Assembly (NCBI GenBank): GCA_044892525.1
Contig: CM097885.1
Span: 15,006,001 to 15,070,000 of the forward strand
DNA from: Schmidtea polychroa
Taxonomy: Eukaryota
Reading direction: 5' to 3'
Length of the DNA: 64,000 nt
Made by a program: the position numbers and the translations under genes. Below the pieces are notes generated by a model, which worked only from the letters and a program-made list of their open reading frames with translations, was not told the origin of the DNA and searched no databases. Position 1 is the first letter of the stretch. The number at the start of each line of letters is the position of its first letter. Shown in pieces: positions 3,147 through 60,434 of this stretch.

Positions 3147-4123
3147 TCAAATAAAATATCTTATATAGTAAAGCATACCATATTTAGTATATAGTAACTG
3201 TTTCAGTTTCTTGGCAATTATCTCACTTATCATGAAACTCGCCTTCACAACACACTCAACCTCTTTATTAACTTTGATAAAGAATGTCTGTTGCCCTAGA
3301 AGTGCTTTTCGGAGAGATTTGATCCTATCTTTCCTTAATTGTCCCTGTATCTGATCGAACTTTTCTGCATGCTGAGTCTGGTAATGCCGTCTTACATTAA
3401 ATTCCTTTTTAACGGAAATTGATTGCGAGCAAACAAGACAAACGAGCATATTGTTTGATTCTACAAACAGATAATCCGATGTCCACTTATCATTAAATAC
3501 TCGGTGTTCACTGTCAACTTTTCGTTTTTTTGTAATAGTGCTCATCCTCAACTGTGGTTGAAATTGCGTATTTTTTTTATAATATAAACATAAAATTATA
3601 AGTTTTGTTCATAGAGGTAGTGAACATAATTTTTGATAATTGAACTGTTGGCTAAAGGAGTTTTATTGTACAACCTCACCTGCCTAATAATATGACAACA
3701 AGGGCATTAATGCATTCATTCCAGTCACACTCATCCTCACAGTTAAGAGAGAGCTACTAGTACATCCTAACCTCTCCTACAGTATTGAATAAAGGCCAGC
3801 TATTAGAGTAGCAGTAGCACACCAACGAACTTGGGATCATCTTCAGCCCTGCACAATTATACGCTCTACATGAAAGTTGGAAGTTTCCTTAATAGAATAT
3901 AACTAAATACTTCACAGTGAGGTGTAAATGTGGAGAGGTGACCGGAAGTTTACTGCTGCACCACCACGCTTATATTAAATGCGTATTTGTACTAATGGTG
4001 TAGCTCTAACGTCAACTGCATACATTCCTGAAAGCTTATCAAGGGCCTGGTTATATGGTGTGGATCAATGAACACTGGGGGCCGGTCAAAAGAGGCTCGC
4101 GGGCCGTATGTTGCTCATGCCTG
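3147..4123 (-). mobile_element. Truncated hAT transposon (SPIN/GTF2IRD2-like): 5' TIR plus transposase N-terminus
   Basis: ORF 3147-3551 has KRKVDSEHRVFNDKW...VCLVC...FNVRRHYQTQH, typical of this family. The minus strand starts CAGGCATGAGCAACATACGGCCCGCG at 4123, a hAT-type terminus. Confidence 0.8.
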
Positions 4124-4371: not shown

Positions 4372-4760
4372 CTAAGTTTCATGTTTGTCAACAGTGATTG
4401 AAGGTTTATGTGATCGTGCGTTATCATGCAGTAATTTTGTGCCGTGCCGATTGGGTAATACTGGTTGTTTTTTCATAAGTTTCTCATGCATGACATCAAT
4501 TTCATGGTAATAGGATACCGCTGTTATGGTATCACCTGGTTTTAGGAAGGAATAATGGATCACACCTTTGGCATTCCACCATACCTTGACAATAACTCTT
4601 TCCCCGTGAATATTCGGCTTAGATGTATATCCTGGCGGTGTATTCTTATCTACCAATTTGTTTGGACTTTTTTGTTATCATATGAAATCCATTGTTCATC
4701 ATAAGTGATAATTTGGTGTAAAAATAATAATCGTTCATTGCGAAGCAATAAAGATGCGCA
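4372..4760 (-). mobile_element. mariner transposase fragment
   Basis: VWWNAKGVIHYSFLKPGDTITA and LLHDNARSH motifs; FLHQIITYDEQWISYDN lies upstream in another frame. Confidence 0.85.
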
Positions 4761-6888: not shown

Positions 6889-9036
6889 CAGTCGATTCCG
6901 CTTAATTGGGACACATCGGAACTTGGGCATTTTGTCCCAATTAAGCGAATTTCACATTTTTTTTAATTCATTGATTTGTTTTTGGCAACTAAGGCCATTA
7001 ACAAGTAATACACACATAAAATTAAACAATGAATATATTTTTTCAATAATTCTATTTTATAAACTCTTGGATATAATAAACTTTTAAGAAAAAAAAATTT
7101 CCTAATTAAAATAATAAATGGGTAAGGTACATACAATTTAATTCAATGCAAAAATGAGTCAAGTGTAGCCTGTCTTTTGTTTTTGTAATATTTCACTTGT
7201 ACAAAGTCAGCACAGATATTCAGTGCAGATGTAGATGCTCCCTTCATTTCCTTCCTGCATAAAATAACGCTGTAACACGGCCATACATTTTTTTGCCTCC
7301 TGGTTAGTCACAGGCACAGGTGACTCATCATCATTATCGTCATCTTCGTCTAATTTTTCATGTTTTCATTTAATACCTTCTACAATTGAATCCTCACAGT
7401 CTTCATTATCATCGTAACATGGTAAATTGTTATCTATTGTTGAAAACTCTTCATAGTTAATAATAGCAACTTGCAACGTATCCTCATATTCTTCATTTCT
7501 TAAAATTTCGGAAATATCTAAGGGTTTAAAGCCGCAATTAGTAAAACAGTTCTGTATTGTGGTGGTTTTTATAGCTCTCCAACTGTCAGTGACAAACTTT
7601 ATTGCTTGCAAAGGGTAATTTTTGAACTAATCTCTCTGGCTGTTGTGGAACTTGTTAATAAATTTTCATCAATGGATTCTAATATGTAATTAACCAATTT
7701 TCCACGATACAAAGTCTTAAAATTTTTTATTACCCCCATGTCCATTGGTTGCACTAACGATGTGGTATTAGGAGGAAGAAATTCCAGCTGTATATTTTTT
7801 AGATTGTCTAAATGAGGGTGTGCCGCACAATTGTCAACAAGCAGCAAAATTTTCTTTGTTTAAGTTGTAATTTTTGGTCCCATCTAGTAAGCCAATTTCG
7901 AAAAATTTCAGAAGTCAACCATGTATTTTTGTTTGCATGGTACTCCACTGGTAAACCCTCCATTCGTAACCCCTTAAAGCATTGAGGTCTAGCACTTTGT
8001 CATATGATCAGTAGCTTTCGTTTGTCAGTACTTGACATTTGTACAGCATAACACAGTAATGCAGTACATTGCCTTTTTATAACCCGACAGTACAATGTGT
8101 TTATAGCATAAAGAACCATCTGGCGTAGCACGATAATAGAGGCCGGTTTCATCAGCATTGTAAATGTCATCAGCACAAAAATTCTCAAAAAATGTAGGAA
8201 TTTTCGTAGTTTTCCACTGTTCGGCACTTTCGATTGCGGCACTGCCCTTTTCACCGTGCGCTTTTTGAAATTTAATATTGTGTCTTGCTTTCCATCGCGA
8301 TAACCAACCATCAGTTGCTTTGAAATCGTTGCGGCCCAGTTTTTAGCTAACTCCTCTGACTTCGCCTTCAATATTTGGCCATTGATATTTATTCCTCTGT
8401 CACTAACAATAGAAAACCATTGATCTAGTGCTTCTTCGACGTCTGGATCCTTCCCCTCGCGTCTTCTTTTGGATGTTCCTGCTTGTCCTTCTTGTAATAC
8501 CAATTCCTCGCGCAGTTGAGTTTCTTGTCGTAAGACACGCGATATGGTAGGTTTTGCTACACCAGTTATCTCAGCGATACGACGATAACTTGTATTAAGT
8601 GGCTGACTTTTTATTTTATCTAGCAAAGCAATTTTACTGGAAAGTGTCAAACCATTTCTTGGCATTTTGGCAAGGGTAAACTTTTTGAAAACTAAAATTG
8701 ACAAAAAATAAGTTCACGCACTGTTCACGTGCGAGGTGTATTGGTGAATGAAAAATAAGCAGCAAATGAGACAGTTGTCACGTGCCAGGTGTGTTGGTAA
8801 CTGAATAAGATCGGCGTGGCTTGGCGCCGCACCAATCAGCTCTGAGACAACGCATCATATCAAATTCTTTGTACATATTTTTTCTTGAGAATATGTGTAA
8901 CATAATATGTGTTGCGATCTTAAATTTACTGTCCCAATTAAGCGGAATGTTGTCCCAATTAAACATAAAATTACTATTGGTATCTTGGTTTGGTTTCGGT
9001 TCTTTGAGATTTTTCCCAATTAAGCGGAATCGACTG
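6889..9036 (-). mobile_element. Full-length pogo/Tigger-family DNA transposon with a frameshifted transposase, in an ALDH4A1 intron
   Basis: Perfect 23-bp TIRs CAGTCGATTCCGCTTAATTGGGA with TA on both sides. The transposase runs from ATG 8665 to ~7145, with HTH/CENP-B-like regions and DDE_1 motifs ([27 protein letters not shown]) split over several frames. Confidence 0.95.
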
Positions 9037-9397
9037 TATTTAGTAATTTCCTTGGTTGCTTTAATTATAAATTTTGATTAGCGTTATTTTGAATGGATGA
9101 AATTAAACCTAATACTTGTTAGGGATTCGGGAATTCTCGAGAATCTCGAATTTTGTCTAGAAAATTGTATAGTCAAAAAAATACGTGTTGTTAAAACAAA
9201 AAATTAAATGAGCCAGAATAAATCGTGCAAAATTAAAACAAAAAAGTTAGGAATAATTTTACTGTCAATTTTTATCAAAATAACTTTTCAACATACACAA
9301 ACAATCTAATGGCTTATCAGAAAAACGGGTTCTACTTGAAAAAGACTGCCGAAAATTCGTGAATATCAAAAACATCGATATATTTACTATTCATATA

Positions 9398-9552
<155 letters not shown>

Positions 9553-9656
9553 TTATAAGAACTTTTATTTCTTCCAATTTCACTACTGATTATTTTATCC
9601 ATTAAATTAAAAAGAGAGTGTGAAGACTATAAATCAGTAATATATCGATGTTTATT

Positions 9657-9699
9657 GATACTCACGAATTTTCGGCACTGCCTTTTTCAAGTGAATATC
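9657..9699 (-). ncRNA. Minimal type I hammerhead ribozyme, U3:A8 variant
   Basis: Minus strand reads GATATTCAC-TTGAAAA-A-GGC(agt)GCC-GAAA-ATTC-GTGAGTATC: 9-bp stem I (one G-U), 3-bp stem II, AATT palindromic stem III, predicted UUC cleavage triplet. Confidence 0.75.
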
Positions 9700-15628: not shown

Positions 15629-17023
15629 TTACTTTTTACCCTTAACGGCTTTACCTTTAGCTGCTTCAGGGGCTTTTTTGTTAACATTCTTGATGACACC
15701 GACAGCAACGGTTTGTTTCATGTCACGAACGGCAAAACGTCCCAATGGGGGGAATTCCATGAAAGTTTCAACGCACATTGGTTTAGATGGAACCATCTTA
15801 ACGATGGCTGAGTCACCAGATTTCAATTGTTTTGGAGCGTCTTCTACTTCTTTACCAGTACGACGATCAATCTTTTTCAAGAATTCAGCGAATTTGCAGG
15901 CAATGTGAGCAGTGTGACAATCGAGAACTGGGGTGTATCCTTCATGGATTTGACCTGGGTGGTTCATTACGATAACCTGAGCTTCGAAGTCGACTGCTCC
16001 CAATGCTGGTGCGTTCTTACTGTCACTGCAAACGTTTCCTCTTTTGATATCTTTAACTGAAACGTTCTTGACGTTGAACCCAACGTTGTCTCCAGGAACT
16101 GCTTCAGGAATTGATTCGTGGTGCATTTCGACTGATTTAACTTCAGTGGTTAAACCGTGTGGGGCAAAGGAGACAACCATGCCTGGTTTGATTACACCTG
16201 TTTCAACTCGGCCAACTGGAACTGTTCCAATACCTCCAATCTTGTAGACATCTTGGAGAGGCAATCTCAATGGTTTTTCAGTTGGTCTGGCTGGTGGATC
16301 AATAGCATCCATAGCTTCCAATAGGGTAACTCCAGTGAGGCTTTCTTCCTTTTTGGTAGCTCCGTTCTTTCTCTTGATGGTCCATCCCTTGAACCATGCC
16401 ATATTGGTGCTTGGGGTAACCATGTTGTCTCCTACCCATCCAGAAATTGGAACGAAGGCGACAGAGTCTGGATTGTATCCAACCTTTTTGATGTAACCAG
16501 ATACTTCTTTTTTGATTTCGTTGTATCGGCTTTCACTGTATGGTGGTTCGGTTGAATCGATTTTGTTGATACCGACGATCATTTGCTTGACACCTAAGGT
16601 GTATGCAAGTAAAGCGTGTTCTCTAGTTTGACCGTTCTTTGAGATACCGGCTTCGAATTCACCGACACCAGCAGCTACAATCAAAACAGCACAATCGGCT
16701 TGAGATGTTCCGGTGATCATGTTTTTAATGAAATCACGATGGCCTGGTGCGTCAATGACGGTGACGTAGTAGTTTGAGGTTTCGAATTTCCAAAGAGCAA
16801 TATCAATGGTGATACCTCTTTCTCTTTCGGCCTTGAGTTTATCCAAAACCCAGGCGTATTTGAAGGAACCTTTGCCCATATCTTGAGCTTCCTTTTCGAA
16901 CTTCTCAATAGTTCTCTTGTCGATACCTCCACATTTGTAGATCATGTGTCCGGTAGATGTGGATTTGCCACTGTCGACGTGTCCAATGACAACGATATTG
17001 ATGTGAGTTTTATCGCAAACCAT
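15629..17023 (-). CDS. EF1A: Translation elongation factor 1-alpha (464 aa, no CDS introns)
   Basis: [17 protein letters not shown] and [11 protein letters not shown] motifs. A probable 49-nt 5'UTR intron lies at 17027-17075 (GTAAG...TTTTAG). Confidence 0.99.
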
Positions 17024-18289
17024 ATTCTAAAATTCAATTTAAGTTTTGTTAATAACCAATGAATAGAAATCTTACTCAATATTTGATTTTCAGAAAATAG
17101 ATTTACAACCGTTTAATTTAAACAAAATTGTAATTTAATTTTTGATAATATATTTTAACATTTAAATTAAATAGGTTTAATTTTTGATTAAATGATTTAA
17201 TTTATGTGAAAATGTAATTGTAATTAATAAATTATTTTTATTAGGATTTTAAAAGCTTCAAATTAAATATTAATTTAATTTTTGATAATATTATTTTATC
17301 TTTAAAAATAGTAATGGTAATTTGTAAATTATTTTTTATCTGGAAACTATCAATGCATTAATGAACGTTTTTATACTTTTTATCAAATTCTCTTATCCTC
17401 TTACACGTGAAATTACTAACCGTCTTTTTTGAAAATTCGCTTCCCAAATATTTCAATGCCATTTTGAAAAATTTGATTTGATAACAAATTGGTTTGGTGA
17501 TTTAATGATTGATTGGTGATGCGTTTTATGTCACTGTACAATTGCTGTCCAGATGTGTAAATTTCAAATAGGAAACCACTACAAAACTTATTGTTATAAT
17601 TATGAAAATATGGCTAAGCGCTTATATGTCACTATTAGTGTCAACTTGGTACAAACTTAAAATTTAATTTGTTTTGTGTCGTGGAAAGTACTATAATATA
17701 TTTTATTCATTGCATATGTAATGCTTTTAAATAAAAATAATGTTGCACTGTCATAAAGTTACGAATTCTATTTGCATAACAGTATTTGTAAAATGTACTT
17801 TCGTAGATCTCTTGTTAATCAACTATGTTTCACTCGAATAAGTAGTAGTAATTATTTACATGTAATTTGAACTGTGAATGTCTTATAAGCACGTTCGCTG
17901 CAACGCATGTTTTGCTCAGGGGCTAAAGTAGAAATTCTTTAAAGGTTTTAGCCTATGTTATTTACTTAAAAATTCTGAAAGCGATCATAGAATCGATTAA
18001 AGGTGATTACTCTGAGCCACTGAGAGGACATGCGTGAGAGGGATGTTAGTAATTTGTTAGTTGATTATTTGAAGGTCTACTATAATGAGCCATTAATTGA
18101 ATTTTACAAATAATTAACTACTTGTTAATTAATTATAAACTGTTGATCTGATTCTTGGCATCACCCAACAGAATGAAAAATCACAACAATCCCAACATTT
18201 TTTTGAAACATTGATTTCCAAATTAATAAAAATTTGAGGTTGCATCAATTTCTTCAAATTTATACTTCTTTGCCTAATTACTGACTATC

Positions 18290-24289: not shown

Positions 24290-25120
24290 TAGTTTATTTC
24301 AAACAAATTACTTTAAAAAGTTAGATAATAATTCATTTATTGAATATTTGAGTCTGATTGATAATGTTTTTGATTGGATTTAATATTTGGGATAATAATT
24401 GGAAAATTCTACATGATAATGCAGCAAAGATGCCAGCCATTGGAATAAGGACGGGACAATATAAAAGTTAAATTTTAGAGAGAACGCGATATAAACATTT
24501 GTCGAAATGCTAACCAGCAACATGCATTTAAAGATATATATTACTCGAATATTATTATTATACATCATTTTAGTGACATACAACTAATTCGAATAAAGAT
24601 TTTATTCAAAGGGACACTGAAATAAATAATGAATATATATGCTCCAGTAGTCAATGTTCCAACGAAAGCACATACACCTGATCTGGCGATTGTACGGAGA
24701 TTGTTGATGATCTTGAATTTTAGCATGTAATCTCCAGTATCGTACGATGTGAAAGTATTTGGATCTCTGTCTGGAATAACTTTGTTAATTAACTGTTTTC
24801 GTAACGAATTTTATCAGGATAATCGCTAGAATTAAAAATTAGTGTTCCAAGATAAATTTTTTGGGTCGAATAGATGATGTTGATGATCAAGATCATCATC
24901 ATAGAGATCATAGCTAAGAAAACGAAGGCTTCAGTTTCTTGAATGTCTGGAATATTTTCTTTATTGGTTCTGATGAGATTTAATGATTGGAAAGTTGAAT
25001 GATTCATTAATTGTTTTTTTTATTGATTTTGATTTTTGAAAAAAAGTGAAGATTATTTAAACACTGATTTTAATTTGATTTAGTTACAATTAATTTAATT
25101 TTAATTTAATTAATTCAAAA

Positions 25121-25293
25121 TATAAAGTGATGATTTCTTGGTAGCAGCATTTATTATTTAAAACAATAAAGTGATAATTTAAGCCTTTTGCTGCGAATAA
25201 TGCATGTATTGAAAAAATTTTCGACTAATGATAAGGACTATCTTATAGTTGAAATTTTTCTATAAATACATTATTCACCGCAAACGGCTTAAT
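25121..25293. mobile_element. Inverted pair of family-2 short repeats with a hammerhead remnant
   Basis: Same sequence as 29710-29826 (+) and 54601-54709 (-). The centre reads TGATAA-G-GACTAT(ctt)ATAGTT-GAAA. Confidence 0.65.
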
Positions 25294-25654
25294 TTAATTA
25301 ATTTAATAATATATTTTAAGTTCAATTATTAAATTGATAAAAGTGGGAGTCAGAGGCACTACAATCATTATTATAATTCATAACACCCTTAAGATGATAA
25401 AATTTAGAACTTTTATTGATTGTTATTAAAAAATACCTGCTCTGAAAATAAAAAAATATACTCGAATTATTCAACATATAAATAAATTTTATCCCTATTA
25501 AAAAATTTGAAATTTCTTTTCGTTATTTTGTCAAAATAAATAAATAAAGAATTAAAAAATAAAACAGATTAGAGGTGACCAAAAGATCATAGATTTTACT
25601 TGCATTAAAATCTTTAGTAAATGCTAGTAAAACCGTGTCTAAGCAGTTTAGCAC

Positions 25655-28052: not shown

Positions 28053-28789
28053 TGATTATTGACCTCAAATATAATTTTTTTGCCGATATCTTTGATTGGA
28101 ATTTTTCTTTTCTTTTACTTTTCTCATTGATTTCACACATTTCAACAAAATATAATTATTTAAATAAATTAAACATTTTTAAAAATTAATTTAAGATATT
28201 TAATATTTTAACTTAAATAAACTTTTCAATTTTCTTTACAATTTTTCTAACTTTTTGTTAATTGACATTAGTCTGCCTTTGGCACGTCGAGCTTGTTATG
28301 AATAATCGTCGGTTGCGGAATTATTTATAAAAGCATAACTTAAATAAATAGGTAAGCCAATTTCCACTGTACTCATATTTTGAAAAATTTTAAGCCAAAA
28401 TGGGTCCTGTTCACTCAAACAGTAAGAAAATTCTAGCAATCAAGAATCTTGATTCAAGATCAAATCCATTCAATGGTTTATGTACAATGCCTATAAAATT
28501 CGAAAAAAATACAGTGCTTCAAGTGAGATTTGTCAACAACCAATTTGCTAATGGCAGACTAATTTCAAGGTAAGATCCAAATAAGCTTAAAACTTATTTT
28601 CCAATATCGCATTACAACCAATTCAAGACCTAATTTTATAATTATTTTAACATTTAAAAAAGTGATAAAGTTATCTAATTATGACCTTCATTCAATTAGC
28701 AATATACAAATAAAATAATCCGAATGGATTTTTTTTACAACCTAATAGGTTAAATTATTAAATTATATATTATTGTTTAATACAACTTA

Positions 28790-28915
28790 TATTTATTAGA
28801 AAGCTTGACTATGATGAATCAATAAATATATCGATGTTTTTTTATATCTTTACTGATTTATAGTCAAGCTTTATAATAAATACAATGTCAATTGAAAATA
28901 AAAGTTCTTATAATA
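28790..28915. repeat. Head-to-head palindrome of a family-1 sister repeat, truncated before the ribozyme
   Basis: ATTTATTAGAAAGCTTGACTA...TAGTCAAGCTTTATAATAAAT; ends in the family tail AAAAGTTCTTATAATA; near-copy at 43358-43478. Confidence 0.7.
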
Positions 28916-29709
28916 AATAATACAACGATCTAGTAAATTAAGTTTAAAATAAATTTTTGAATTTTAAATTAAGTCTTGTGAGTATTTAAATAAATTTAAG
29001 CAAATAAATACCGTAATTATCCGAATATAAGACGCATCCAATATAAGACGCATCATTAAAAATTGACTGAATTCAAGAAAATATAAGTAACCCAAATATA
29101 AGACGCATGTATAATTATTACATTAAATTTATATTACATTAAATTTATTTTTTGTTTAAAATTAAAATTTCAGTTACTTAAATAATAATAATTATATAAA
29201 TATAATAAATATAATAAATATAATAATAAATATAATAAATATATAAAATATTCCATAGTTTAAACAAAATTAATTTTTAAACTATTGAAATGATCGCAAA
29301 TATAAACAATATATTTTTTAATAATTTTCATAATTGCAATCTCAAATCAATCATTTTTATCTTTCATTATTTTCAAAGTCAAATGAATTTTGTTTTTTAC
29401 AGAATTATTATTTAAATTAAAATATTTGTATTTTTACCTCAACCATCTAGCATTACAGCGATTCGATAGCAATATTAAACGGACGCAGCGGGAAATAACT
29501 AATCAAAATGGGGAGGTGTAATAACCTGGCTAAGTTATTAAATTTGGATGAATTGTAATGGAAATATCACAATTTTAATATATTTTTTTATACTTTCATA
29601 TTCAATTGTCTAATGAAGTTAAATATTCAATAACATTCAAATACTACAAACCAAATTTTAATAATAATAATAATAATAATATTATTAATATCTTATATAA
29701 TATTATTAT

Positions 29710-29960
<251 letters not shown>

Positions 29961-30683: not shown

Positions 30684-31979
30684 CGTAGTTCGTTCAATAA
30701 TGCATCGGACTAACAAAGAAAGAATAACAACACAAAAAACTGAAACAACTTTTATTGAACTACATCAATTACTAGTTCGAAAAACACATTTAATTATTTT
30801 TCTATATGACTACCATTGGCCTATTCCATCGAATAACCAAATCTTGAAATGCATCAGCAAAAAGATGTCCAGGAATCTGTGCAAACCACTGTTAAACAAA
30901 TTGCTGGAGTGAATCTGATGTCTCAAATGATGGCCATGCAATGCATTCTTTATGTGTTTGAACAAAAAAAGTCTCTCGGAGCCAGGTCCGGGCTGTAAGG
31001 TGGGTGTTGGAGAAGTCTAAAACCACTCTTTTCTGTTTAACATCGTAAACATTGCTTGTATTGACAGGAGCATTATCAACAAAGAGCCAAAGTGGAACAT
31101 TTCTTGATTTCCGTTTCTTTGCACGGCATTCCTCAACCAATTTTGCATAGTATTGACCATTTATTGTTTGTCCATTAGTCAATAAATCTAGGTGAATGAC
31201 TGCACTTTTGTCCCAAAAACACTGAGAGCATCAGTTTTTTTCAATGTGATTTGTCATTTCTCATTCTTTAGAGGAGGTTTCTCTTCTACATGTCTTCATT
31301 CAGATGATTCCCGTTTGGTTTCAGGTAAGTATAATGAAAGAGATGTTTCGTCCTCAGTAACAATATTATTAAGAAATGCATCACTATACTGATTCAACAG
31401 TTGCAAATTTGACAATGTGCTGTTGAGGTGCATTTCCTTCATGTCAGGAGACAGAAACTTTGGAAATAAATCGGGAGCATAATTTGAGATAGCCTAATTT
31501 CCCAATGATGTTGTGACAACTATCCAACACTTATTTTAAGTAATTCTGTTATTTCACACACCTTAGTTCGTCTTTCAACTCGAATAATCGCCTCACATTG
31601 CGTAATTTTTTGATCGGAAATTTCAGTTAGTCTGCCAACATTGGAATAATCCTGGTGCACACTTTCATAGCCATGCTTGAATAATGATATCCAACGATAT
31701 ATTGTGGATCTAGAAGGACATTTGTTACCATATGCAATTGCTATATCACAAAAATATTTCATCAGACGACTTCTTTAAAAGCACAGAATTTTATCACACT
31801 TCTGTATTCCACCTCATCCATTTGACGAAAAATGGAATTATAAGTACGTACGTCAGCCAATCAGATTATTTAATTTATGCATATAAACAAACATACGTGT
31901 AAGTGTTAAAACCAATTGGTTTGATTGGTTTATCATGTTTCTTTCTTAGTCAGTCCCAGCCATTATTGAACGAACTACG
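30684..31979 (-). mobile_element. Full-length mariner element (1296 bp) with a disrupted transposase
   Basis: Perfect 19-bp TIRs CGTAGTTCGTTCAATAATG with TA flanks; ATG at 31821; motifs IVTEDET, LFVDNAPV and HPPYSPDLAPRDFF. Confidence 0.95.
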
Positions 31980-32820: not shown

Positions 32821-34417
32821 ATTGATTGTGATGTTTATTTATTTTAGAAGTTAGTCTTCTTACACCATATTTAAGATTGTAGCAATAAATCACGGTTTGA
32901 TTAGCCTAGGAGGTAGGACAATTCTGGTAATATAAGTTGAAGAGACGTAATTAAAAACAGAAATATAAACCAATTTAAAGGACTTTAAAACAGGAATGAG
33001 TTATTTTGGCGATTTGCTCCAGAAACTCCAAATGATTACACAAACGGTTATAATAAACAGAAGATATATAATTAAGGTTGATTAAAACAAAAATAAAGCA
33101 TTAAAATACCCCGAACATATTCCGTGATTACTAAATGAACATCTAACAGCGGGATTAAATAGAGAAATTATAAAATAAATTATTTCAACCACTCTCAAAT
33201 CACTTTCCCAAATCAAACATTTTATAATAAATTCTTCTTCATCAAAACCGGTTGTAAAGTGTCAAATCTTGTCATTATTGGCAAATCTATCAGTAGCCAA
33301 GACAGTGAAAGCTTAAGTATGAGTGAAGATTGATTTAGATGAAACCTGCTAGAAATTAATAACAATTTCATTGCACAGCCAGTCTCAAACAGAAAATTAG
33401 TCAACCATCACCGCACTGAAATCAGTCAAGCGTAAAAGTGATTTAATTTTCGTATATTAATATGCATATGAAAACGTTGTGCAGATTCTGCAAAGGTTGC
33501 AATTCACCATGGCTCAAGAGCATTTGATTGAACTGGAAATTACTATGTATATAAAACCAGAGAAATGATTGACATCTCTAATGAAGCATGCGTCTCGACA
33601 GATTAATATGAACAAATAAAAAGCAACCGGGCAACATGTCAATTTTGATAGAATTCCTGCCACATGATAAATAATGTTCGTGCGCCACTCATCGCCAGCC
33701 CATCCCAGCCATTAGCAGCAAATGTTCGATTCCAAAAATCATTTCCAATATGACCAGGTTAGATTTTCGAAATCTCTTAGTAAAGTTTTGATAAGCGCGA
33801 GACAGAATGCGAGTGTGCGAATAAGTATGCCTTTTATATGAATCACACGTAAGCTCGACCGCGAATTTCTCGTTTTGAAGCATTAATTTGATTTTTGATT
33901 TTCTCAATGAGCGAATCCGATTTGTGTGGTCAGATTTTGATTGACAGATGGTAAATTGTATTGGTGTTGTACTTTCATAGTTCCATCGCATATTGTGCCC
34001 ATTCCAGCTTCCTCTGCGAATGCGAGTGTGTGATGTGTATATGGGCATGTTGTCTCGTCTCGCCTCATTGCTTAATGCGGGTTTCTTGGTCTCATGTGTT
34101 ACTGAATTTTTAGTTGTCAGTTTGCGGAACTTTAAACCATAATTTCTGATTATATGTATTTTTGTTTTCACTGTAAGCTATGTGATATATTTTCAATTTT
34201 GATAAAATATCCTATGTCCCAGTCTATTCATTGGTATCAACGGATCATGTTTGGATTATTCATTTCAAAATTTAGTATGTTTTTAATTTTTATTTTACAT
34301 ACACTTTTATTGAAAATATTATTATAAAAATTAAATATATTCAAAGTTCATTAGTTATGAAAGGTATAAAATCTTCAGAGATTTATTATCAGATTTATTA
34401 TTATTATTATTATCATT

Positions 34418-34655
34418 ATTATAAGAACTTTTTTTCCAATTTCACCACTGATTATTTTTTCCATTGAATTTTTTAAAAAGAGAGCTTGAAGACTAAAAAT
34501 CAGTAATATATCGATGTTCTTTGATGCTCACGAATTTTCGGCACTGCCTTTTTCAAGTGAATTTCTTGAATTCACTTGAAAAAGGCAGTGCCGAAAATTC
34601 GTGAGTATCAAAAAACATCGATATATTACTGATTTATAGTCTTCAAGCTCTCTTA
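34418..34655. mobile_element. Head-to-head pair of family-1 repeats with hammerheads on both strands
   Basis: Ribozyme motif on - at 34527-34562 and on + at 34570-34606; (TTA)n on both sides. Confidence 0.78.
34570..34606 (+). ncRNA. Minimal type I hammerhead ribozyme, U3:A8 variant
   Basis: ATTCAC-TTGAAAA-A-GGCagtGCC-GAAA-ATTC^GTGAGT; predicted cut after 34600. Confidence 0.75.
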
Positions 34656-35445: not shown

Positions 35446-35590
35446 TCACTTGAAAAAGGCTGTGCCGAAAATTTGTGAATATCAAAAAAACATCGATATC
35501 TTTACTGATTCATAATAAAACTTTTTAATGAATAAAATGTCAATTGACAAGAAATCAATGGTGAAAATTAAAAAAAGTTCTTATAATATT
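35446..35590 (+). mobile_element. Solo family-1 repeat with hammerhead (U at position 17)
   Basis: TCAC-TTGAAAA-A-GGC(tgt)GCC-GAAA-ATTT-GTGA ... AAAAGTTCTTATAATA. Confidence 0.7.
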
Positions 35591-40083: not shown

Positions 40084-41600
40084 CAGTGTTCCGCAAACTT
40101 ATTGTGTTCGAGGTACACCTAACAAATCAAAAATTTTTGAGGTACACAAAAGAATAAACCAATATTAATCATTATAATATGAGAAGATGTTTAATGAGAA
40201 ATGTGAGCCTGCTTAACGGAGCACAAACGGTCAAAATTTAGAGCAATCTCAATTTTCTTAAATCATTCTCGGCGTTCTCTTTTTCTGATTTAACCGTAGT
40301 GAGAGTTGAAAACCAAAATTCAATGATAAGAGAATGGCAATAGCATGCTTTGGACGCAGTGGATATTCATTTTTTATATGAAGCCTAAACTGTGATAGCT
40401 CTGTTTCGCAAATTTTAGTTTTAATGTCCGATCAGTTTTTATCGGTAAGTATCCAAGGGAAATGCTACCCGAGAATGAATTTCGTACCCAATATACAGGG
40501 TGCAGGTCACATTCAGGAAAATGGAGTTCATTTTTAATTCTAATACCTCCAAGTGTTTCACTATTAAAGCATGCACTTTTTTTCTGAATCGGCAGCCATG
40601 ACATTTGGGAACATTTCATTACTTCCATTGGTAGTGTGGGTGATCCATAACACCAACTTAACGCGAAAGCTTTCAATCTTGTTCGATGATGTTAAAATAT
40701 TATAATTCATCCCTTGCATTCTTTTGTTGATCTAATCTAAATGAGTGAAAATATCTGCCAGGTATGCAAGTTAAGGTTTATATAGAAGCCCATGTTATAA
40801 ATCCCCTAAGTTTTCCCGTCATTGTTGCTGATCTGTCTGTGCAAATACTTATACAATTGTGCTATTCCAAATTACGCTCTGGTACTGGTCCTTTACTTTG
40901 AATATCTTTTCTCCAGTGTTATAGCCAGGTAGTGGCAGACAAAATAAAAGTCCTCTTTTATTTCATACCCTTCAGTGTACCTCACTCGTCAACTTGTATT
41001 GCCAAAACTCCTCTAAGCCTTAATTTTTCAATTAACGTCAATTCAATGTCGCTAGAAATATCATAAACACGACGTGAGATCGTATCTGCTGACGCAGGTA
41101 TTTTTTAGATTTCCTTAGTGATTTCTTGGCTAATTATAATGTTGACAAATTCTCTGCTGACAGGTAAAATTAAAGTTTCAGCAAGAAAATGAGGTTTATT
41201 GGATTTAACTTGTATATTAGCGTTCATGTAACTTGCTCTTTGTGTTTTATATGATGTTTTGAAAGACGAACTCGCGAGAGTTACCTGTTTCTTAGACTGG
41301 TCTTTCAAACGTTGAAAATGCCAGTCTTTTTGAGCCACTGATGGGTGCTTAGTAGTTAAATGTCGTAAAAGTTTACTGGGTATCATCAAATTATTACCCA
41401 AAGTTTCTCTATAAACTAGACATTTTGGGATCGGGCATGTTTCGTCTCCACAATATATAAAGCCATAACTTACATTGCTCTTATCATACTTTCTTCGTTG
41501 ACTCTGCTTCTTCTTGGGAATCATTAGTTTCACTTGACAAACTTGCGACACTTTTAACGAATTTACACGTATTATGGGGTATTTATTTTTACACCTGTTT
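40084..41600 (-). mobile_element. hAT (Charlie/Buster, ZBED5/8-like) remnant
   Basis: ORF 41105-41551 RKYDKSNVSYGF...PSKLLRHLTTKHP; further fragments LAYLADIF and QAHISH; terminus CAGTGTTCCGCAAACT at 40084. Confidence 0.85.
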
Positions 41601-41849
41601 GCATGAAATAAAAGGATCTATAATATAAAAATAATTTAAATCTTACTTGATGGTTGATATATAAATAAACTAACTTAAAACTTGTTTTTCTCATACACCA
41701 ACAGGCAATTGATTATCATCGAATGGACATTGATTTAGCTTTTTCATAATATAAATATTAACTTACCTATAATAAATATGTGCGTGTCATAGCCAGATGT
41801 GACATTGAATCATATCAGTCATTTATAACCGAATCGACTGTGAAACGAT

Positions 41850-43080: not shown

Positions 43081-43357
43081 TAAAAAATATTGATATGTCA
43101 AATCTATTGTTATTTCTTTATTTCAATATAAATTCTTATCTATTCATTAACTTCGGATTAAAGAGATAACGTAATTATAACTGAAATATGTTGAAATTAA
43201 GAGAGTGAAATATAAGGAGTTTTTATGGTTGGTTTTTTAATTTTTGAAGAAACGAAATCAGTTGAATTAAATGGAATAGAAAAGTAGAAGCACTTTTGGA
43301 TTAAATTTTATAAATAGAAATTTAAGAACCTCTTTCGATTTTCACCTCTGATTTATT

Positions 43358-43478
43358 TTCAATTGACATTGTATTTATTAAAAAGCTTGACTATAAATCA
43401 GTAAATATATCGATGTTTTCTTGATATATTTACTGATTCATAATCAAGCTTTTTCATAAATACAATGTCAATCGAAAG
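43358..43478. repeat. Head-to-head palindrome of the family-1 sister repeat
   Basis: TTGACATTGTATTTATTAAAAAGCTTGA...TCAAGCTTTTTCATAAATACAATGTCAA. Confidence 0.7.
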
Positions 43479-44675: not shown

Positions 44676-45645
44676 TGTTAAAATGTTATTTAGTATTTTC
44701 ATTAAAGTTACACGTAAAAGATCTTTGCCGACAGATATCAAAACTATCGGCAATTATCACTAGTGAAGATTTATGACAAAAGAAATGGGAAAAGAAAATA
44801 ATGCCCACAAAGTGCATTTGAATATAGAAAACAAAAAACGTGGGTTGTAATGGATAAATTCAAAATTCTATGATATCAATGCATCTTTTAATTAGGGATC
44901 GGCGTTCTAAGTGATTACTATTGTTGTTTAGAGTCGAATTCAATTGGGATCACGCGACCTCGTTGAAAAAGGAAAGCTTTGAATAAGGTGGCAGTAGCTA
45001 TAATAGCATGGCAACACAATTGGAATTACTCATGTTATTATTACATAACTATTCGATAATTGCATAACAAACATTTAATCTCATTTTGTTTTTATTAATT
45101 TAACAATAATCCTGGAAATAAGTTGGCCTCGACTCCATCTCTCACGGTCGAGCGTATTTCATTGTTTCTGTATTCATCATGTCAATCAATGATGTAATAT
45201 TGTAAACAAGAAAATAAACTCGGCAAACGAATTCCAATTTGTTTCAAATAAGTGCTGACATCTTCCAAGCACAACTTTATCGATCGATTTGCACTGTCGC
45301 AGTCAATGTCAAACCCACCCAACATCTGTGGGCATTTTTCAATTTTTCAGGTGCCCGATAAATCTCTACATGGAATTTTGGGAAATTATCTGTGTACTTT
45401 GTCGAATAGACGTTCATGACAGTTTTTATTCAGACTGTCACAATTAAATCATAATGTCTCTGAAATTTTCAAGTGCTGTTTCAAAATTTGGATCTAGTTA
45501 ATATTTAAACAAATTAATAAAATTTTCAAATATTTTTAAGCAATTTTAAAAATAATAGTAATAAATATCATAATAATAATAAAATAAAAATAATAATTAT
45601 TATTATAATCATATAATAATAAAATAATAATAATAACATAATAAT

Positions 45646-45845
45646 ATTATAAGAACTTTTATTTCTTCCAATTTCACCACTGATTATTTTTTCCATTGAA
45701 TTGAAAAGAGAGTTTGAAAATTTTCGGCACTGCCTTTTTCAAGTGAATTTTAAATTCACTTGTAAAAGGCAGTGCCGAAAATTCGTGAGTATCAACAAAC
45801 ATCGATATATTACTGATTTATAGTCTTCAAACTCTCTTTTCAACA
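45646..45845. mobile_element. Head-to-head pair of family-1 repeats with damaged hammerheads
   Basis: The - copy has lost the 3' strand of stem I by deletion; the + copy (45754-45790) has an A6U core (TTGTAAA). Confidence 0.72.
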
Positions 45846-47479: not shown

Positions 47480-47667
47480 TGCTCAGTTTCTGACCAATAA
47501 GAGAAGGAGTAGAAAAATCTCTACATTAATTAATGAATAGTTGTTCTCGCTTATCTTGTCACGCACTGTCATATCGACAACCAATAGGAATCGAGCTGTG
47601 AATAAATGAGTATTTTACCATCGAATAATTTCAGGTCGATCAAATCTGACAACAGTCAATAATATCA
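47480..47667 (+). promoter_or_regulatory. Putative zic proximal promoter
   Basis: CCAAT boxes at ~47494 and 47581 just upstream of the ORF; TSS not determined. Confidence 0.35.
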
Positions 47668-48508
47668 ATGGTTTCCTATCCGTCATTATTGATCACCGAC
47701 AATTTGTCAAAAGATATTAAATTTCATCAAAATATACAAATCAACCATCAATTGCCTTTATCAATGACAACATCTGAAACCGAGAGATTTTCGTCTACAA
47801 ATCACAATAAAAATTTTTGTACAAATGATTTACTATTGAAACGATATTCCTATGATCCCAATTATGATTTGTTGTCCTCTCATCCAGCAACGGTTTCTGA
47901 TAATTATCCGCCTGAATTTCTAACTTCAAATTCATTATCATCGTTTAGTGTCAACGCTTTGAATTCGGCCGATATTCTATCCCAGACTTCTGCAAATGAT
48001 TACCAAAACTATGGAATGTATGGAAATCATTCCCAGAATCATCACCAATCTATGTCGTGCAATCCTGGTACGGCATTGGAGCCCCAAATTCTCCATTCTC
48101 AAACCGTAGCTCCTATTCATCCAGCGATGAGTTCCTACAGTCACCAAGCTGCGTTCTATCAATTCTTTCACAGGAACGCTGTTTCGGGATTCAGAACCGA
48201 GTTTCAATGCCTGTGGTTGGATAAACACACGAAAGAAGAGCGTCGAACATGCGGGAAATTGTTTTACACAATCAATGAAATAGTCAACCACTTAACACTT
48301 GATCATGTCGGTGGGCCCGAACAACTGGATCACACTTGTTATTGGAAGAACTGTACGAGAGATTTTAAACCATTTAAAGCGAAATACAAATTGGTAAATC
48401 ATCTCCGTGTCCATACGGGAGAGAAACCATTTCAGTGCCCGTTTTTAAGCTGTGGAAAATTGTTTGCTCGAAGTGAAAATCTGAAAATCCATAAAAGAAC
48501 TCACACAG
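47668..48508 (+). CDS. zic: Zic/odd-paired C2H2 zinc-finger transcription factor, exon 1 (ZF1-3)
   Basis: ZF-NC-like [12 protein letters not shown]...[14 protein letters not shown]...[20 protein letters not shown]...[15 protein letters not shown]; donor G|GTAAAT. The paralogue (zicA or zicB) cannot be assigned here. Confidence 0.95.
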
Positions 48509-49512
48509 GTAAATGATTTGATTTAATAATTTTAATTTTCAAAATCAACTTATATTAAATGAATAAGTTTATATGAAGGAAGGGGACACTGTCATCTTTT
48601 TTATATCATTTAAAGATTTATTTTTATATAAACTCTTCAAATTATAACATAAAACACCTGAGGGCCTTTTTATAGCGGAGCAAGAGAAAGGGTTTAATCT
48701 CCACGTTCCCACTTTTGATTGCACTTATTTTGTACTTCTTATTTTCTTTTGGGACGATTTATAAAATTAACACAATTAAAAAGGTAATTAAAATGCAACC
48801 TTCAGGAACTCTAGGCTTTTAGTCTTCGCACTTGATACGTATAAGCGGCACTTTGAACACAAAGATTTAATTTCATCCCTGTCTTGGTATCATCAACATT
48901 GTTGTCACTTTCTTTCACGTTTTACATTCACAAGAGTTCAGAGAATATTGAAACATTTTGTAAATAAATTGTAAAAAATTCAACAACACAAAATCCAGCC
49001 CCCTCCAGGTGCCGATAATGGCTTTTCTCCCATTAAATCCAATTCTTCATCATTATGAAAAAGTTATTAAACCAATTTATAATATATTATATAGTCAAAC
49101 CAATTATATATAACGAAAATTATAATTATCTCACGATAATCCATTTTGTTTGACTGATTATTATGCAATTTCTGTGTCACAATTAGGAGATCCAATACTG
49201 GTCAAATGCCCCCCCCCCCCAACAAATAATATTCAATAATAACATCAGTTTTACATGAAATGGAACCGAATTTTTTGAAAATTCAATTAAACGTAATAAT
49301 TATTTTATAATTAATTACAGACATGGAAATTTTAAAAAGATATATTAAAACCACCGACAACATAGGGTAAAAGCAAATATAAACAAAACATTATTTTATA
49401 ACGACCAATATAATAAACAATATAGATGGACACCAAAAATTCACATTTCGTTGGACTAGATGATTTGCTTGGATGTATTTCACCAACACAATTTGTTCTT
49501 CATTATCCTCAT

Positions 49513-52892: not shown

Positions 52893-53274
52893 TTAATCAT
52901 TTCTTTAAAAAAACATATTTATAAAAAAATGCGAGAAAACATCGATTTTCTTAAATTGGAAATCAATTTTTATTTTCTGAAAATAAAATATAACAAAATA
53001 TTTTTATAATATTTTAATCACACTTTGGACACCCTTAAATTAATATGATATTATAAATTTCCATTTATTTAAAAATTCCCCAATACCCTTCAGGGTTTCC
53101 TGACCAAATAAATCAGCTGATTTTATAAACTTTTAAAAATCCAAATTATTTTGTGCAATATCTATGATGTTTCCCGATGCAAAGATTTATTGTCATTTAA
53201 TTCAACGTTTTTGTTTTAATTATATATTTATTTTGAATTAAATTCTTGAATTATGAATGCCTTATTAATCTTAG

Positions 53275-53852
53275 GAGAAAAACCGTTCAAATGTGACTTT
53301 GAAGGATGTGACAGGAGGTTTGCCAACAGTTCCGACCGTAAGAAACACATGCACGTGCACATGAATGACAAACCGTATTTCTGTAAGCAAGAAGGTTGTG
53401 ATAAAAGCTATACGCATCCAAGCTCTTTGCGAAAACATATGAGAATTCATAACATTTCACCAAATAATGACTACAATATGGATGCCAATTCATACGATAC
53501 CGATTTCAACCAGCAACTCAATAGTTGCCCAAAAATGCCTAAACACAACCAAAATCAATTGAAAGAATCGATTTCCAGTTTCGAGCACGATCATCGAAAT
53601 ATCAATCAACACGAACATTCTGGCTCTTCCAATAAACTCTTAAACTTTTTCCCTTTTCCTCATTCTTCGAATTACAAACAGAGACCTTGTCATATTAATC
53701 CAGATCAATCAAGCGTCTGGTTGCCATATCCTTATTTTGAGAATCCGTCTGGCAGTCGCAATCCTTTATGGTCAAAATCCTATCCGTCATTGTTCGATAT
53801 CACGAAACCTTCGTTCCTCGCCTCCAATCCACATTCAGATTCCGTGACGTAG
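53275..53852 (+). CDS. zic: Zic exon 2 (ZF4-5 and C-terminus); spliced product 472 aa
   Basis: TTAG|GA restores [31 protein letters not shown]...[18 protein letters not shown]. Confidence 0.95.
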
Positions 53853-54473
53853 AATTTGATAAACCTGACTATCCGTTAGATATATCCCAACTACAAAATA
53901 ATTTTTTGAAATTTATACGTTGCTTTGTCGATTTTTTTTTAATGTCGCATAATTCTCTTGACAGGCTCGGTCACAGGGTTCGTACAGGGTATCAAATCAG
54001 TAATTGTGATGCTATTGTTTTATCGGAGCTAAATTTATACGATAAAAACAAAATAAACATTTATATATGCTTTATTTATATTTGTATAATTAACGAAAAA
54101 AATATTAGGGTTATTTAATGGATTTTCAAATCCGCTTTATCTTCTGTCAGTGTGAAATTTTAGAAAAAACATGTGAAAAATTATATTTATCCAACTTTTT
54201 TTTAATAATTGTGATAATTTTCAACTTTCGTTGATTTTCTTGACTCAGTGTGAAGAATCGGAAGTCATTTTTCATTGTCAGGTGCAAATTTCTATTGGCA
54301 CGCATTTCCCGAATTATTCAGTTACTTTATTAAAACAACGATTTCAATAATATTTTACGAATTCTATTTTAATGATTCGTTATTACATAATATTTCTGGT
54401 GTTTTAATTAATAGGTTTTTTGGATTATAACTTCATTTTTCTCATGGAGCTTATTGGAAGGCAATTAATATTT

Positions 54474-54709
<236 letters not shown>

Positions 54710-59300: not shown

Positions 59301-60229
59301 AGCATAACTACTAACCTCATCATATTTTAAAATAGCTAAAATGCTATATAAAAAACATGAATCATCGGTGTTTTTTATATTAATTAAACAATATTTATTT
59401 TTTAGATAAGTAGGTAGTTCAATGAAACTCCTACCACTTAATCTACTTAGCCTACTTATCTTTGTTATGGTGAAGTGAATTTCTGTTATTTTTTTTATGA
59501 TCCAGCTACTTCCTAACTCTGTGATATTACTTATTTTCTCGTTTAGTTCCCTAATGCCTTCGTCAAAAAATGAGGCAGTTAAAGGTTTTGCGTAATTCGA
59601 AATATTATTAACCTTTATTTCCCCATCTTTTTCAAATTCGATTGTTATTCCGAATTGAATTTTGACGGAGCCTAATTCGTTAATAATATCTCGTAATTTT
59701 ATAATTAATTGTTCAGGAAATATTATTTCCTTTATATTTAAGTCGCTAGTATTTAAACTTAATATTTGATGGGTACCCCTTAGATCTTTTTGTATTATGG
59801 GAACATTACCCCCTATTTGTATTATATTTAATCCATCCCAAGAATCAAGGGAAATATTATCTAATCCGACCTGGGATTCAACAACCAATCCATCATGGGA
59901 TTCGACAACCAATCCATCATTGGATTCCACAAAAGGCAATCCGACCTGGGATTCAAAAGAAGAAGTATCTAATTTAATTTTTTTATTTTTATTATTTTTT
60001 TCTATAGTTGAGGGTCTTTTAAAAACACTATCTTTTTTAAAATTAAACCTATCTAAATGATTTTTATGTTTATTATAAAAAACGCTATATGTTACGGGGT
60101 CACTAGTCTTACATACGGGACATATAAAATAAGTTTTATTATAATATTTTTTCGTATAATAATTCTCCATTATAGAATGGCAATTATTATCATGTTCTTT
60201 CGATGAACAATAATTTGGGTAAAGTATAC
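56382..60229 (-). CDS. polB: Protein-primed family B DNA polymerase of Polinton/adintovirus type, main exon
   Basis: ExoI VYADFE, ExoII FHNLKGYD, ExoIII YLKLD; Pol A YIDINNLYG, Pol B KLLNNSLYGK, Pol C GDTDS, plus PKCY and KAKGV; EndoVII/HNH insert CYLC...DHDHFTGKYLGAACSTCN; vOTU-like DDSCF...HY. Confidence 0.92.
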
Positions 60230-60434
60230 CTATAAAATAAAAATTTAATAAAAAAAATATAATTTAAATGAAATATTTTAGTAAATGTTTACGCAAAAAT
60301 TTGCAAATTATTATTATTTTACAAATTTTATTTACTAAAAAATAAAAATTTACTAAATTAAAAATATTAACATTTACTTAAATAAAAAATTATATTAAAT
60401 TTCCTTTAAATTATAAAAAGTAATCAATACTTAC

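What the first reader, a model, noticed from the sequence alone, without database searches (positions are those of the whole stretch)
9657..9699. Dispersed minimal hammerhead ribozymes with a compensated U3:A8 core (family 1)
Seen: a ~150-bp repeat occurs as at least seven ribozyme-bearing copies (9333+, 9699-, 34562-, 34570+, 35446+, ~45750-, 45754+). Its 5' end reads stemI-UUGAAAA-A-GGC(agu)GCC-GAAA-AUUC^-stemI. Established: the hammerhead core is CUGAnGA...GAAA...UH; C3 and G8 form a required pair that tolerates a U3:A8 swap; minimal type I hammerheads with a palindromic stem III occur in Penelope pLTRs and cleave as dimers. Inference: this is a self-cleaving RNA family that a CUGAnGA search would miss, needing dimerisation through AAUU. 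One copy differs in the stem II loop (agt/tgt) with the pairs preserved.
Basis: partly seen in the sequence, partly recalled or inferred. Interest (0 to 1): 0.88.

Follow-up and report, generated by a model that had tools for sequence, protein, structure and literature searches.

The report
Penelope retrotransposon end-repeat hammerhead ribozyme
These scattered repeats are the ends of a Penelope-type jumping gene, each carrying a tiny hammerhead-ribozyme motif whose unusual U-A core pair is already known from other animals, so this is a new example of a known thing, though where the copies begin hints that they were copied from uncut RNA.

Summary
The repeat is real, but only 4 of the 7 listed copies keep a complete hammerhead fold. 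It is the terminal repeat (pLTR) of a Penelope-like retroelement. The motif follows a GIY-YIG endonuclease in 29 of 30 loci, one locus has the full pLTR-RT-EN-pLTR layout, and the genome holds at least 1,546 exact copies. The U3:A8 core, the extra A, the AAUU palindrome and dimer dependence are in print for Penelope minimal hammerheads, including an identical UUGAAAAA core in Schistosoma (PMC4209133). Within the family U3:A8 is fixed, not covarying, and copies decay neutrally. A sister family covaries in stem I and in the palindrome. New here: short copies start sharply 33 nt upstream of the predicted cut (22 of 54), not at it (1 of 95), which suggests uncleaved, promoter-initiated templates. 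The window's head-to-head pairs lie on opposite strands and cannot form the cis dimer. Cleavage and expression are untested. The scan found this motif type before in two other genomes.

The parts
9657..9699 (-). Complete minimal hammerhead motif (the finding). Stem I 5' strand 9699-9691, U3 at 9690, extra A before the 3-bp stem II, GAAA, AAUU palindrome, C17 at 9666, stem I 3' strand 9665-9657.
9551..9699 (-). Whole solo pLTR copy (subfamily A) with the ~55-nt 3' tail, running into a (TA)n tract
9334..9395 (+). Degenerate short pLTR copy, stem II broken; tail-to-tail with the 9699- copy across (TA)n 9393-9557
34417..34562 (-). pLTR copy with tail, complete motif (U3 34556); left arm of a head-to-head inverted pair
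34569..34654 (+). Short pLTR copy without tail, complete motif (U3 34576, C17 34600); right arm of the pair, followed by (TTA)n
35446..35588 (+). Subfamily B pLTR copy with tail; complete motif with UGU loop, U17 and a 4-bp stem I (U3 35450)
45645..45750 (-). pLTR copy with tail and an internal deletion of about 42 nt that removes the 3' strand of stem I; left arm of an inverted pair
45752..45843 (+). Short pLTR copy without tail, core A6 changed to U (predicted inactive); right arm of the pair
43323..43477 (.). Head-to-head pair of more deeply truncated subfamily B pLTR pieces lacking the hammerhead
28772..28916 (.). Older head-to-head pair of hammerhead-less subfamily B pLTR pieces

Best explanation
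The repeat is the pLTR of an endonuclease-bearing Penelope-like retroelement (PLE), about 2.9 kb long. Its first ~42 nt are a minimal type I hammerhead with a U3:A8 core. SHOWN: the linkage to RT and GIY-YIG, the two-pLTR layout, the two 3' ends (about +60 and +115 from the cut site), the inverted partner arms, and a 5' wall at -33. INFERRED: transcription starts at -33, at an initiator-like TCAAATT. The element's RT/EN nicks AT-rich or microsatellite DNA and starts reverse transcription internally at +60 or +115. Starting in the 3' pLTR gives ORF-bearing, 5'-truncated copies. Starting in the 5' pLTR, or on a solo-pLTR transcript, lets the cDNA run off the uncleaved RNA 5' end, giving the 90-150-bp copies seen in the window. 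The ribozyme was selected at the level of active elements. It probably cleaves only weakly, as a dimer of the two pLTR copies in one transcript or with help from the element's protein. The window copies are dead remnants.
For: EN domain PF01541 (E 7.6e-9). RVT_1 (weak, below its cut-off) and GIY-YIG lie in one open frame. The motif lies 179-274 nt downstream of EN on the same strand in 29 of 30 EN-selected loci. Locus L213 has pLTR-ORF-pLTR with hammerheads 2,862 nt apart. In 95 anchor-selected copies, 26 end at +60, 25 end at +113 to +117, and 55 have an inverted copy upstream. In 26 of 28 head-to-head pairs exactly one arm has the tail, as described for PLEs (PMC3846280, PMC8557442). 22 of 54 copies that keep stem I start at -33 (one search lists 23; one is a long copy with an inserted A); about 1.2 are expected from uniform truncation. 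Only 1 of 95 starts at +1. A sister family (78 matches) differs at N7, the loop, the palindrome (AAUU to AUAU) and stem I pair 4 (U-A in 23 of 25 to A-U in 25 of 28), keeping pairing, while the downstream sequence aligns only loosely. Literature: same motif class, with low dimer activity (PMC4209133); internal RT initiation at the two tail ends, protein-assisted cleavage, and uncleaved RNA as the dominant insertion substrate (PMC11167929).
Against: No cleavage or RNA data. Within the family the invariant core is no better conserved (0.945) than free positions (0.96) or a downstream block (0.975) (EN-selected copies, substitution-only matching, so rough). There is no 3:8 covariation in the family, and no C3:G8 sister with this stem II (1 match). 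ViennaRNA puts the active dimer about 4.4 kcal/mol above two monomers, and its best dimer pairs through stem II instead (tertiary contacts not modelled). Stem II is only 3 bp with a triloop. The sister family's stem I also pairs in a register slid by two, because CAC/GUG is repetitive. The start-site reading of -33 rests on genomic ends and a recalled initiator consensus. The two arms of a pair and segmental duplicates are not independent, and all 95 copies come from the first 25 Mb of one contig.
Confidence: 0.8

Rival explanations
1. It is a vestigial hammerhead. The pLTR identity holds, but this lineage's motif no longer cleaves and persists as promoter, 5' UTR or protein-binding sequence.
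For: Copies keep the uncleaved 5' half and show no end at the cut. There is no excess core conservation in the family. The predicted active dimer is unfavourable. In the anole element cleavage was dispensable for insertion in vitro (PMC11167929).
Against: Between family 1 and the sister family every invariant core base is kept, and the changes fall on free or covarying positions while the neighbouring sequence diverges. Part of this is forced by the search pattern, which fixed the core and stem II but not stem I. U3-A8 covariants were active in vitro according to PMC3088659.
Confidence: 0.25
2. The -33 boundary is not an RNA 5' end. It comes from self-priming or microhomology joining at the AATT palindrome just upstream of stem I during formation of inverted junctions.
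For: 14 of the 23 listed -33 ends have an inverted arm upstream. Arms of a pair usually share a diagnostic base (23 of 28, p 0.0006), as fold-back copying would give. Self-priming was proposed for PLE palindromic junctions (PMC3846280).
Against: 8 short copies with no inverted arm also start at -33. The second AATT, at -5 to -2, is not a comparable hot spot (4 of 95 end at -4 or -3). 5 of 28 pairs are discordant.
Confidence: 0.25
3. The copies are an autonomous ribozyme RNA family or retrozyme-like circles, cut to unit length by the hammerhead and reinserted, or functional host ribozymes.
For: High copy number (1,546 exact) and a complete fold in several copies.
Against: Only 1 of 95 copies has a direct repeat copy within 200 nt upstream, so there are no tandem arrays. 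Ends do not match the cut site. Copies decay neutrally and are continuous with the PLE ORF.
Confidence: 0.04
4. It is a DNA-transposon derivative (MITE or Helitron-type element) whose hairpin resembles a hammerhead by chance.
For: Inverted arms and microsatellite flanks.
Against: The arms meet head-to-head with variable junctions and unequal outer ends, unlike terminal inverted repeats. The repeat is physically part of an RT plus GIY-YIG element.
Confidence: 0.01

Closest known systems
Minimal hammerheads (min-HHR) of metazoan Penelope-like elements, U3-A8 variant: S. mansoni Cercyon families 3 and 4 (Cervera and De la Pena 2014, PMC4209133)
   Same: Type I, no real stem III, palindromic 15.2-16.2, extra nucleotide between 9 and 10.1, G10.1-C11.1, U3-A8; S. 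mansoni(4) has the same UUGAAAAA core. Mostly solo copies, some as close opposite-strand pairs.
   Different: Stem II is 3 bp with a 3-nt loop, against 7-8 bp in S. mansoni; a 3-bp GGC/GCC stem II occurs in their C. briggsae example. This sequence family is not among the representatives in their Figure S3 that I read, whose Schmidtea example is a different C3:G8 family.
Poseidon PAc of Anolis carolinensis (Frangieh et al. 2024, PMC11167929)
   Same: RT plus C-terminal GIY-YIG, pLTR hammerhead, two 3' ends defining a tail, AT-rich targets, no ends at the ribozyme cut.
   Different: C3:G8 core there. Its ORF starts within the hammerhead, whereas here the likely start codon lies about 120 nt past the cut, just after the tail.
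Penelope of Drosophila virilis (Schostak et al. 2008, PMC2377424) and Adineta vaga Penelope (PMC3846280)
   Same: Internal promoter in the pLTR with the start site upstream of the hammerhead, inverted pLTR arms, tail at one end, solo pLTRs.
   Different: D. virilis has an intron between start site and hammerhead. Solo pLTRs in A. vaga were ascribed to recombination or deletion, whereas here their ends suggest direct retrotransposition.
Non-LTR retrozymes (PMC7229834 listing; bioRxiv 10.64898/2026.07.22.740005 part 1)
   Same: Non-autonomous, hammerhead-bearing, PLE-related repeats.
   Different: Retrozymes are head-to-tail tandem arrays of type I hammerhead units; these copies are solo or head-to-head.

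Membership tests
PLE minimal hammerhead (min-HHR) | Core boxes CUGAnGAH (or U3-A8 covariant) and GAAA, NUH cleavage triplet | tested here: met
   UUGAAAAA, GAAA, UUC or UUU in 4 of 7 window copies; consensus
PLE minimal hammerhead (min-HHR) | Extra nucleotide between 9 and 10.1; G10.1-C11.1 pair | tested here: met
   feature listed
PLE minimal hammerhead (min-HHR) | Palindromic 15.2-16.2, no monomeric stem III | tested here: met
   AAUU in family 1, AUAU in the sister family
PLE minimal hammerhead (min-HHR) | Short closing stem I with covariation | tested here: met
   6 bp in family 1, 4 bp in the sister, pair 4 U-A to A-U; a register slid by two also pairs
PLE minimal hammerhead (min-HHR) | Longer-than-usual helix II (typical, not universal) | tested here: not met
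   3 bp; a 3-bp example is in the published list, so this does not exclude membership
PLE minimal hammerhead (min-HHR) | Located in the pLTR of a PLE | tested here: met
PLE minimal hammerhead (min-HHR) | Self-cleavage as dimer or with protein help | not testable with these tools
   folding energies only
EN+ Penelope-like element | Single ORF with RT and C-terminal GIY-YIG | tested here: met
   L063 and L061 frames carry RVT_1 (below cut-off) then GIY-YIG (above cut-off); no uninterrupted full ORF seen among the 38 longer loci read
EN+ Penelope-like element | Direct pLTRs flanking the ORF; inverted 5' copy; tail at one end | tested here: met
   L213 and L206; 55 of 95 inverted; 26 of 28 pairs with one tail
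EN+ Penelope-like element | Clade (Penelope/Poseidon, Neptune, Nematis, Hydra) by RT phylogeny | not tested
   no tree built, no reference set fetched
Non-LTR retrozyme | Head-to-tail tandem units each with a hammerhead | tested here: not met
   1 of 95 with a direct copy within 200 nt upstream; no such array in the window
Rfam hammerhead families | Match to an Rfam covariance model | tested here: not met
   only sub-threshold miRNA-hairpin hits

The most novel reading that the evidence does not exclude
The thousands of solo pLTRs are SINE-like products of internal priming on uncleaved RNA that starts at the first base of the hammerhead region. The genome would then record that hammerhead cleavage is not on the path to these insertions. 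The ribozyme would act as a brake or switch, since cutting parts the element body from its RT start sites and removes the cap, rather than as the maker of template ends. That would make the open question of what PLE hammerheads are for testable from copy ends alone.
Probability: 0.35. Interest if true: 0.55.

Novelty: new member of a known kind. Interest (0 to 1): 0.27.

Why it matters
The motif adds one more U3:A8 family to a class described in 2014, so little changes for ribozyme chemistry. The useful part is the copy-end census. A sharp 5' wall at -33, none at the cut site, and a tail on exactly one arm of inverted pairs give genome-scale support for internal priming on unprocessed RNA, so far shown in vitro for one lizard element. 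They also give concrete positions to test. A 3-bp, triloop stem II with U3:A8 would be among the smallest natural hammerheads if it cleaves.

Tried and rejected
Rfam scan: no hammerhead family; the miRNA hits are sub-threshold matches to the inverted pairs. The DNA search of the own genome returned nothing because common words are skipped, so patterns were used instead. Within-family 3:8 covariation: rejected. A C3:G8 sister family with the same stem II: not found, 1 match. Excess core conservation among family copies: not seen. A peak of 5' ends at the cleavage site: not seen; the four ends called at +1 or +2 look like microhomology junctions or deletions on inspection. The ATG at about +64 as ORF start: unlikely, because frames differ between copies; the shared frame begins at about +120. 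Sister-family 5' ends: a broad mode at -32 to -36, too diffuse to count as confirmation; only 2 of its 30 loci show EN remnants. Sequencing runs: no RNA holder listed, which is no evidence either way; no read-level data were obtained. Lunse et al. (PMC5785218) and Przybilski and Hammann 2007 (PMC1986816) were not held. MITE, Helitron and retrozyme readings were rejected as given under rivals.

Full report
OBSERVATION. It folds as a 9-bp stem I enclosing a 3-bp stem II with a 3-nt loop (z -3.84). The core pattern occurs 6 times in the window against 0 in 100 shuffles, and BLAST adds the copy at 9334+ and two hammerhead-less pairs. A descriptor that enforces stem I, stem II and the palindrome finds 4 complete motifs against 0 in 40 resampled windows. 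The other three listed copies are broken: stem II at 9334+, a deletion after the core at 45750-, and A6 to U at 45754+. Rfam has no hammerhead match at E up to 1.

WHAT IT IS. The host is an AT-rich animal genome of 781 Mb; a planarian is my untested guess. An exact 31-nt pattern has 1,546 matches, a looser one 3,467, and a downstream pLTR anchor 2,897, each with 0 in the reversed control. Of the first 30 loci, several shared upstream sequence that translates to the end of a retroelement ORF, with a GIY-YIG domain above Pfam's cut-off. Taking the 30 best genomic matches to that domain, 29 carry the motif 179-274 nt downstream on the same strand. Longer frames hold RVT_1 (weak, below cut-off) followed by GIY-YIG. 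Among 30 RT-selected loci, L213 has pLTR, ORF and pLTR with hammerheads 2,862 nt apart, and L206 shows a partial tandem. The likely start codon lies about 120 nt past the cut site. I saw no uninterrupted full-length ORF. The repeat is therefore the pLTR of an EN+ Penelope-like element; its clade was not tested.

COPY ANATOMY. I selected copies by a downstream anchor that is independent of the hammerhead. These were the first 100 listed places of 2,897, all in the first 25 Mb of contig C1, giving 95 distinct contexts. Positions are counted from the predicted cut. The 3' ends are bimodal: 26 of 95 at +60 and 25 at +113 to +117. Many others are blurred by AT-rich flanks. 55 of 95 have an inverted copy upstream and 1 has a direct one. 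In 26 of 28 head-to-head pairs exactly one arm carries the tail, and the arms share a diagnostic base in 23 of 28. This matches published PLE anatomy (PMC3846280 and PMC8557442, passages). The 5' ends pile up at -33. Of the 54 copies that keep the 5' strand of stem I, one search lists 23 there, and I drop one that is a long copy with an inserted base. Uniform truncation with chance extension predicts about 1.2. Eight of the 22 have no inverted arm. Only 1 of 95 begins at +1. Arms of one insertion and segmental duplicates are not independent, so the p-values overstate the case, but the wall is plain.

IS IT A RIBOZYME? Within the family there is no signal: U3:A8 1,546, C3:A8 17, U3:G8 21, C3:G8 1, with 0.23 expected. 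Core identity (0.945) is not above free positions (0.96) or a downstream block (0.975) in 25 EN-selected copies. Across families there is a signal. A sister family (78 matches; 30 read, 28 distinct) changes N7 from A to U, the loop, the palindrome from AAUU to AUAU, and stem I pair 4 from U-A (23 of 25) to A-U (25 of 28). It keeps a 4-bp stem I that the pattern did not impose (19-26 of 28 paired per position, against 1-7 when slid by one; a slide by two also pairs in part), while the downstream sequence aligns only loosely. Core and stem II were fixed by the pattern and do not count as evidence. Folding energies give no support to the active dimer: it is about 4.4 kcal/mol above two monomers, and the preferred dimer pairs through stem II. 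A transcript through either head-to-head pair forms one long hairpin (-138 and -43 kcal/mol), which would sequester the motif.

MECHANISM. Shown: pLTR identity, two 3' ends, one 5' wall, inverted arms. Inferred: transcription starts at -33, where TCAAATT fits a recalled initiator consensus; D. virilis Penelope has an internal pLTR promoter (PMC2377424). The element protein primes on AT-rich DNA and starts copying internally at +60 or +115, as shown in vitro for the anole element (PMC11167929). Priming in the 5' pLTR, or on a solo-pLTR transcript, runs off the RNA end at -33. Because the copies keep the 33 nt upstream of the cut, their templates were uncleaved. That agrees with the anole data, where cleavage needed protein, was dispensable for insertion, and no RNA reads ended at the cut. 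If the ribozyme works, the natural partner is the second pLTR 2.9 kb away in a full-length transcript. I put real but weak cleavage at about 0.6-0.7 and the start-site reading of -33 at about 0.6. Self-priming at the AATT palindrome is the main rival for the wall.

WHAT IS KNOWN. PMC4209133 describes minimal PLE hammerheads with the extra nucleotide, G10.1-C11.1, the palindrome, solo and opposite-strand copies, low dimer activity, and a U3-A8 variant with about 1,300 hits in S. mansoni. Its Figure S3 lists a UUGAAAAA core for S. mansoni(4). PMC3088659 reports natural U3-A8 covariation and cites in vitro activity. This family's own sequence is not among the Figure S3 representatives I read. Searches turned up no paper on it, nor one describing a 5' wall at the pLTR start. 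That is a weak negative: Lunse et al., its supplement and Repbase could not be seen and may hold it. Two earlier notes of this scan reached the same class in other genomes.

PAPERS, AS SEEN. PMC4209133: parts 1-3 of 4 of the text and parts 1-2 of 3 of the supplement PDF. PMC11167929: parts 1-2 of 4. bioRxiv 10.64898/2026.07.22.740005: part 1 of 5. PMC2377424: passages and section 15. PMC6765202, PMC8557442, PMC3846280, PMC3088659, PMC3884650: passages. PMC7229834: search listing only. PMC5785218 and PMC1986816: not held, known only through citing passages. Hammerhead numbering follows the papers read; the initiator consensus and the statement that A6 changes impair cleavage are recalled (PMC3088659 notes low activity for A6C).

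VERDICT. A real feature and a new member of a known kind. Interest 0.27. The one lead worth following is the -33 wall and what it says about uncleaved templates.

Noticed in passing
window 15629-17026 (-): Intronless 465-aa frame reading as translation elongation factor EF-1alpha (named by recall from the translation)
   Followed up: no
window 47650-48516 and 53250-53852 (+): Two exons reading as a Zic-type C2H2 zinc-finger gene (named by recall); the 45645-45843 pLTR pair lies about 2 kb upstream
   Followed up: no
window 56382-60263 (-): 1,293-aa open frame resembling a protein-primed family B DNA polymerase, as in Polinton-type elements (recalled resemblance), flanked by 30-, 61- and 144-bp tandem arrays
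   Followed up: no
window 25119-25296, 29702-29958, 54469-54709: A second dispersed, microsatellite-associated repeat with inverted arrangement, possibly another PLE pLTR family
   Followed up: no
window 3147-3608, 4372-4674, 8000-8713, 30892-31230, 41105-41617: Fragments resembling DNA transposases of several kinds (recalled resemblance)
   Followed up: no
L039 / L081 (G000:C1:200768965-200768995): The single family copy with a canonical C3:G8 core, downstream of an EN domain; consistent with two chance changes
   Followed up: yes
L082-L111: Older sister PLE hammerhead family with an AUAU palindrome and a different stem I, 78 exact matches; EN remnants in 2 of 30 loci
   Followed up: partly
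window 35446-35588 and L006, L007, L014, L024, L025, L028: Subfamily B shares the hammerhead but has a different downstream pLTR; its autonomous partner was not sought
   Followed up: no
L063:1276-1400 (-): An extra cysteine cluster (CxC...CxC) just before the GIY-YIG domain, which may help to place the clade
   Followed up: no
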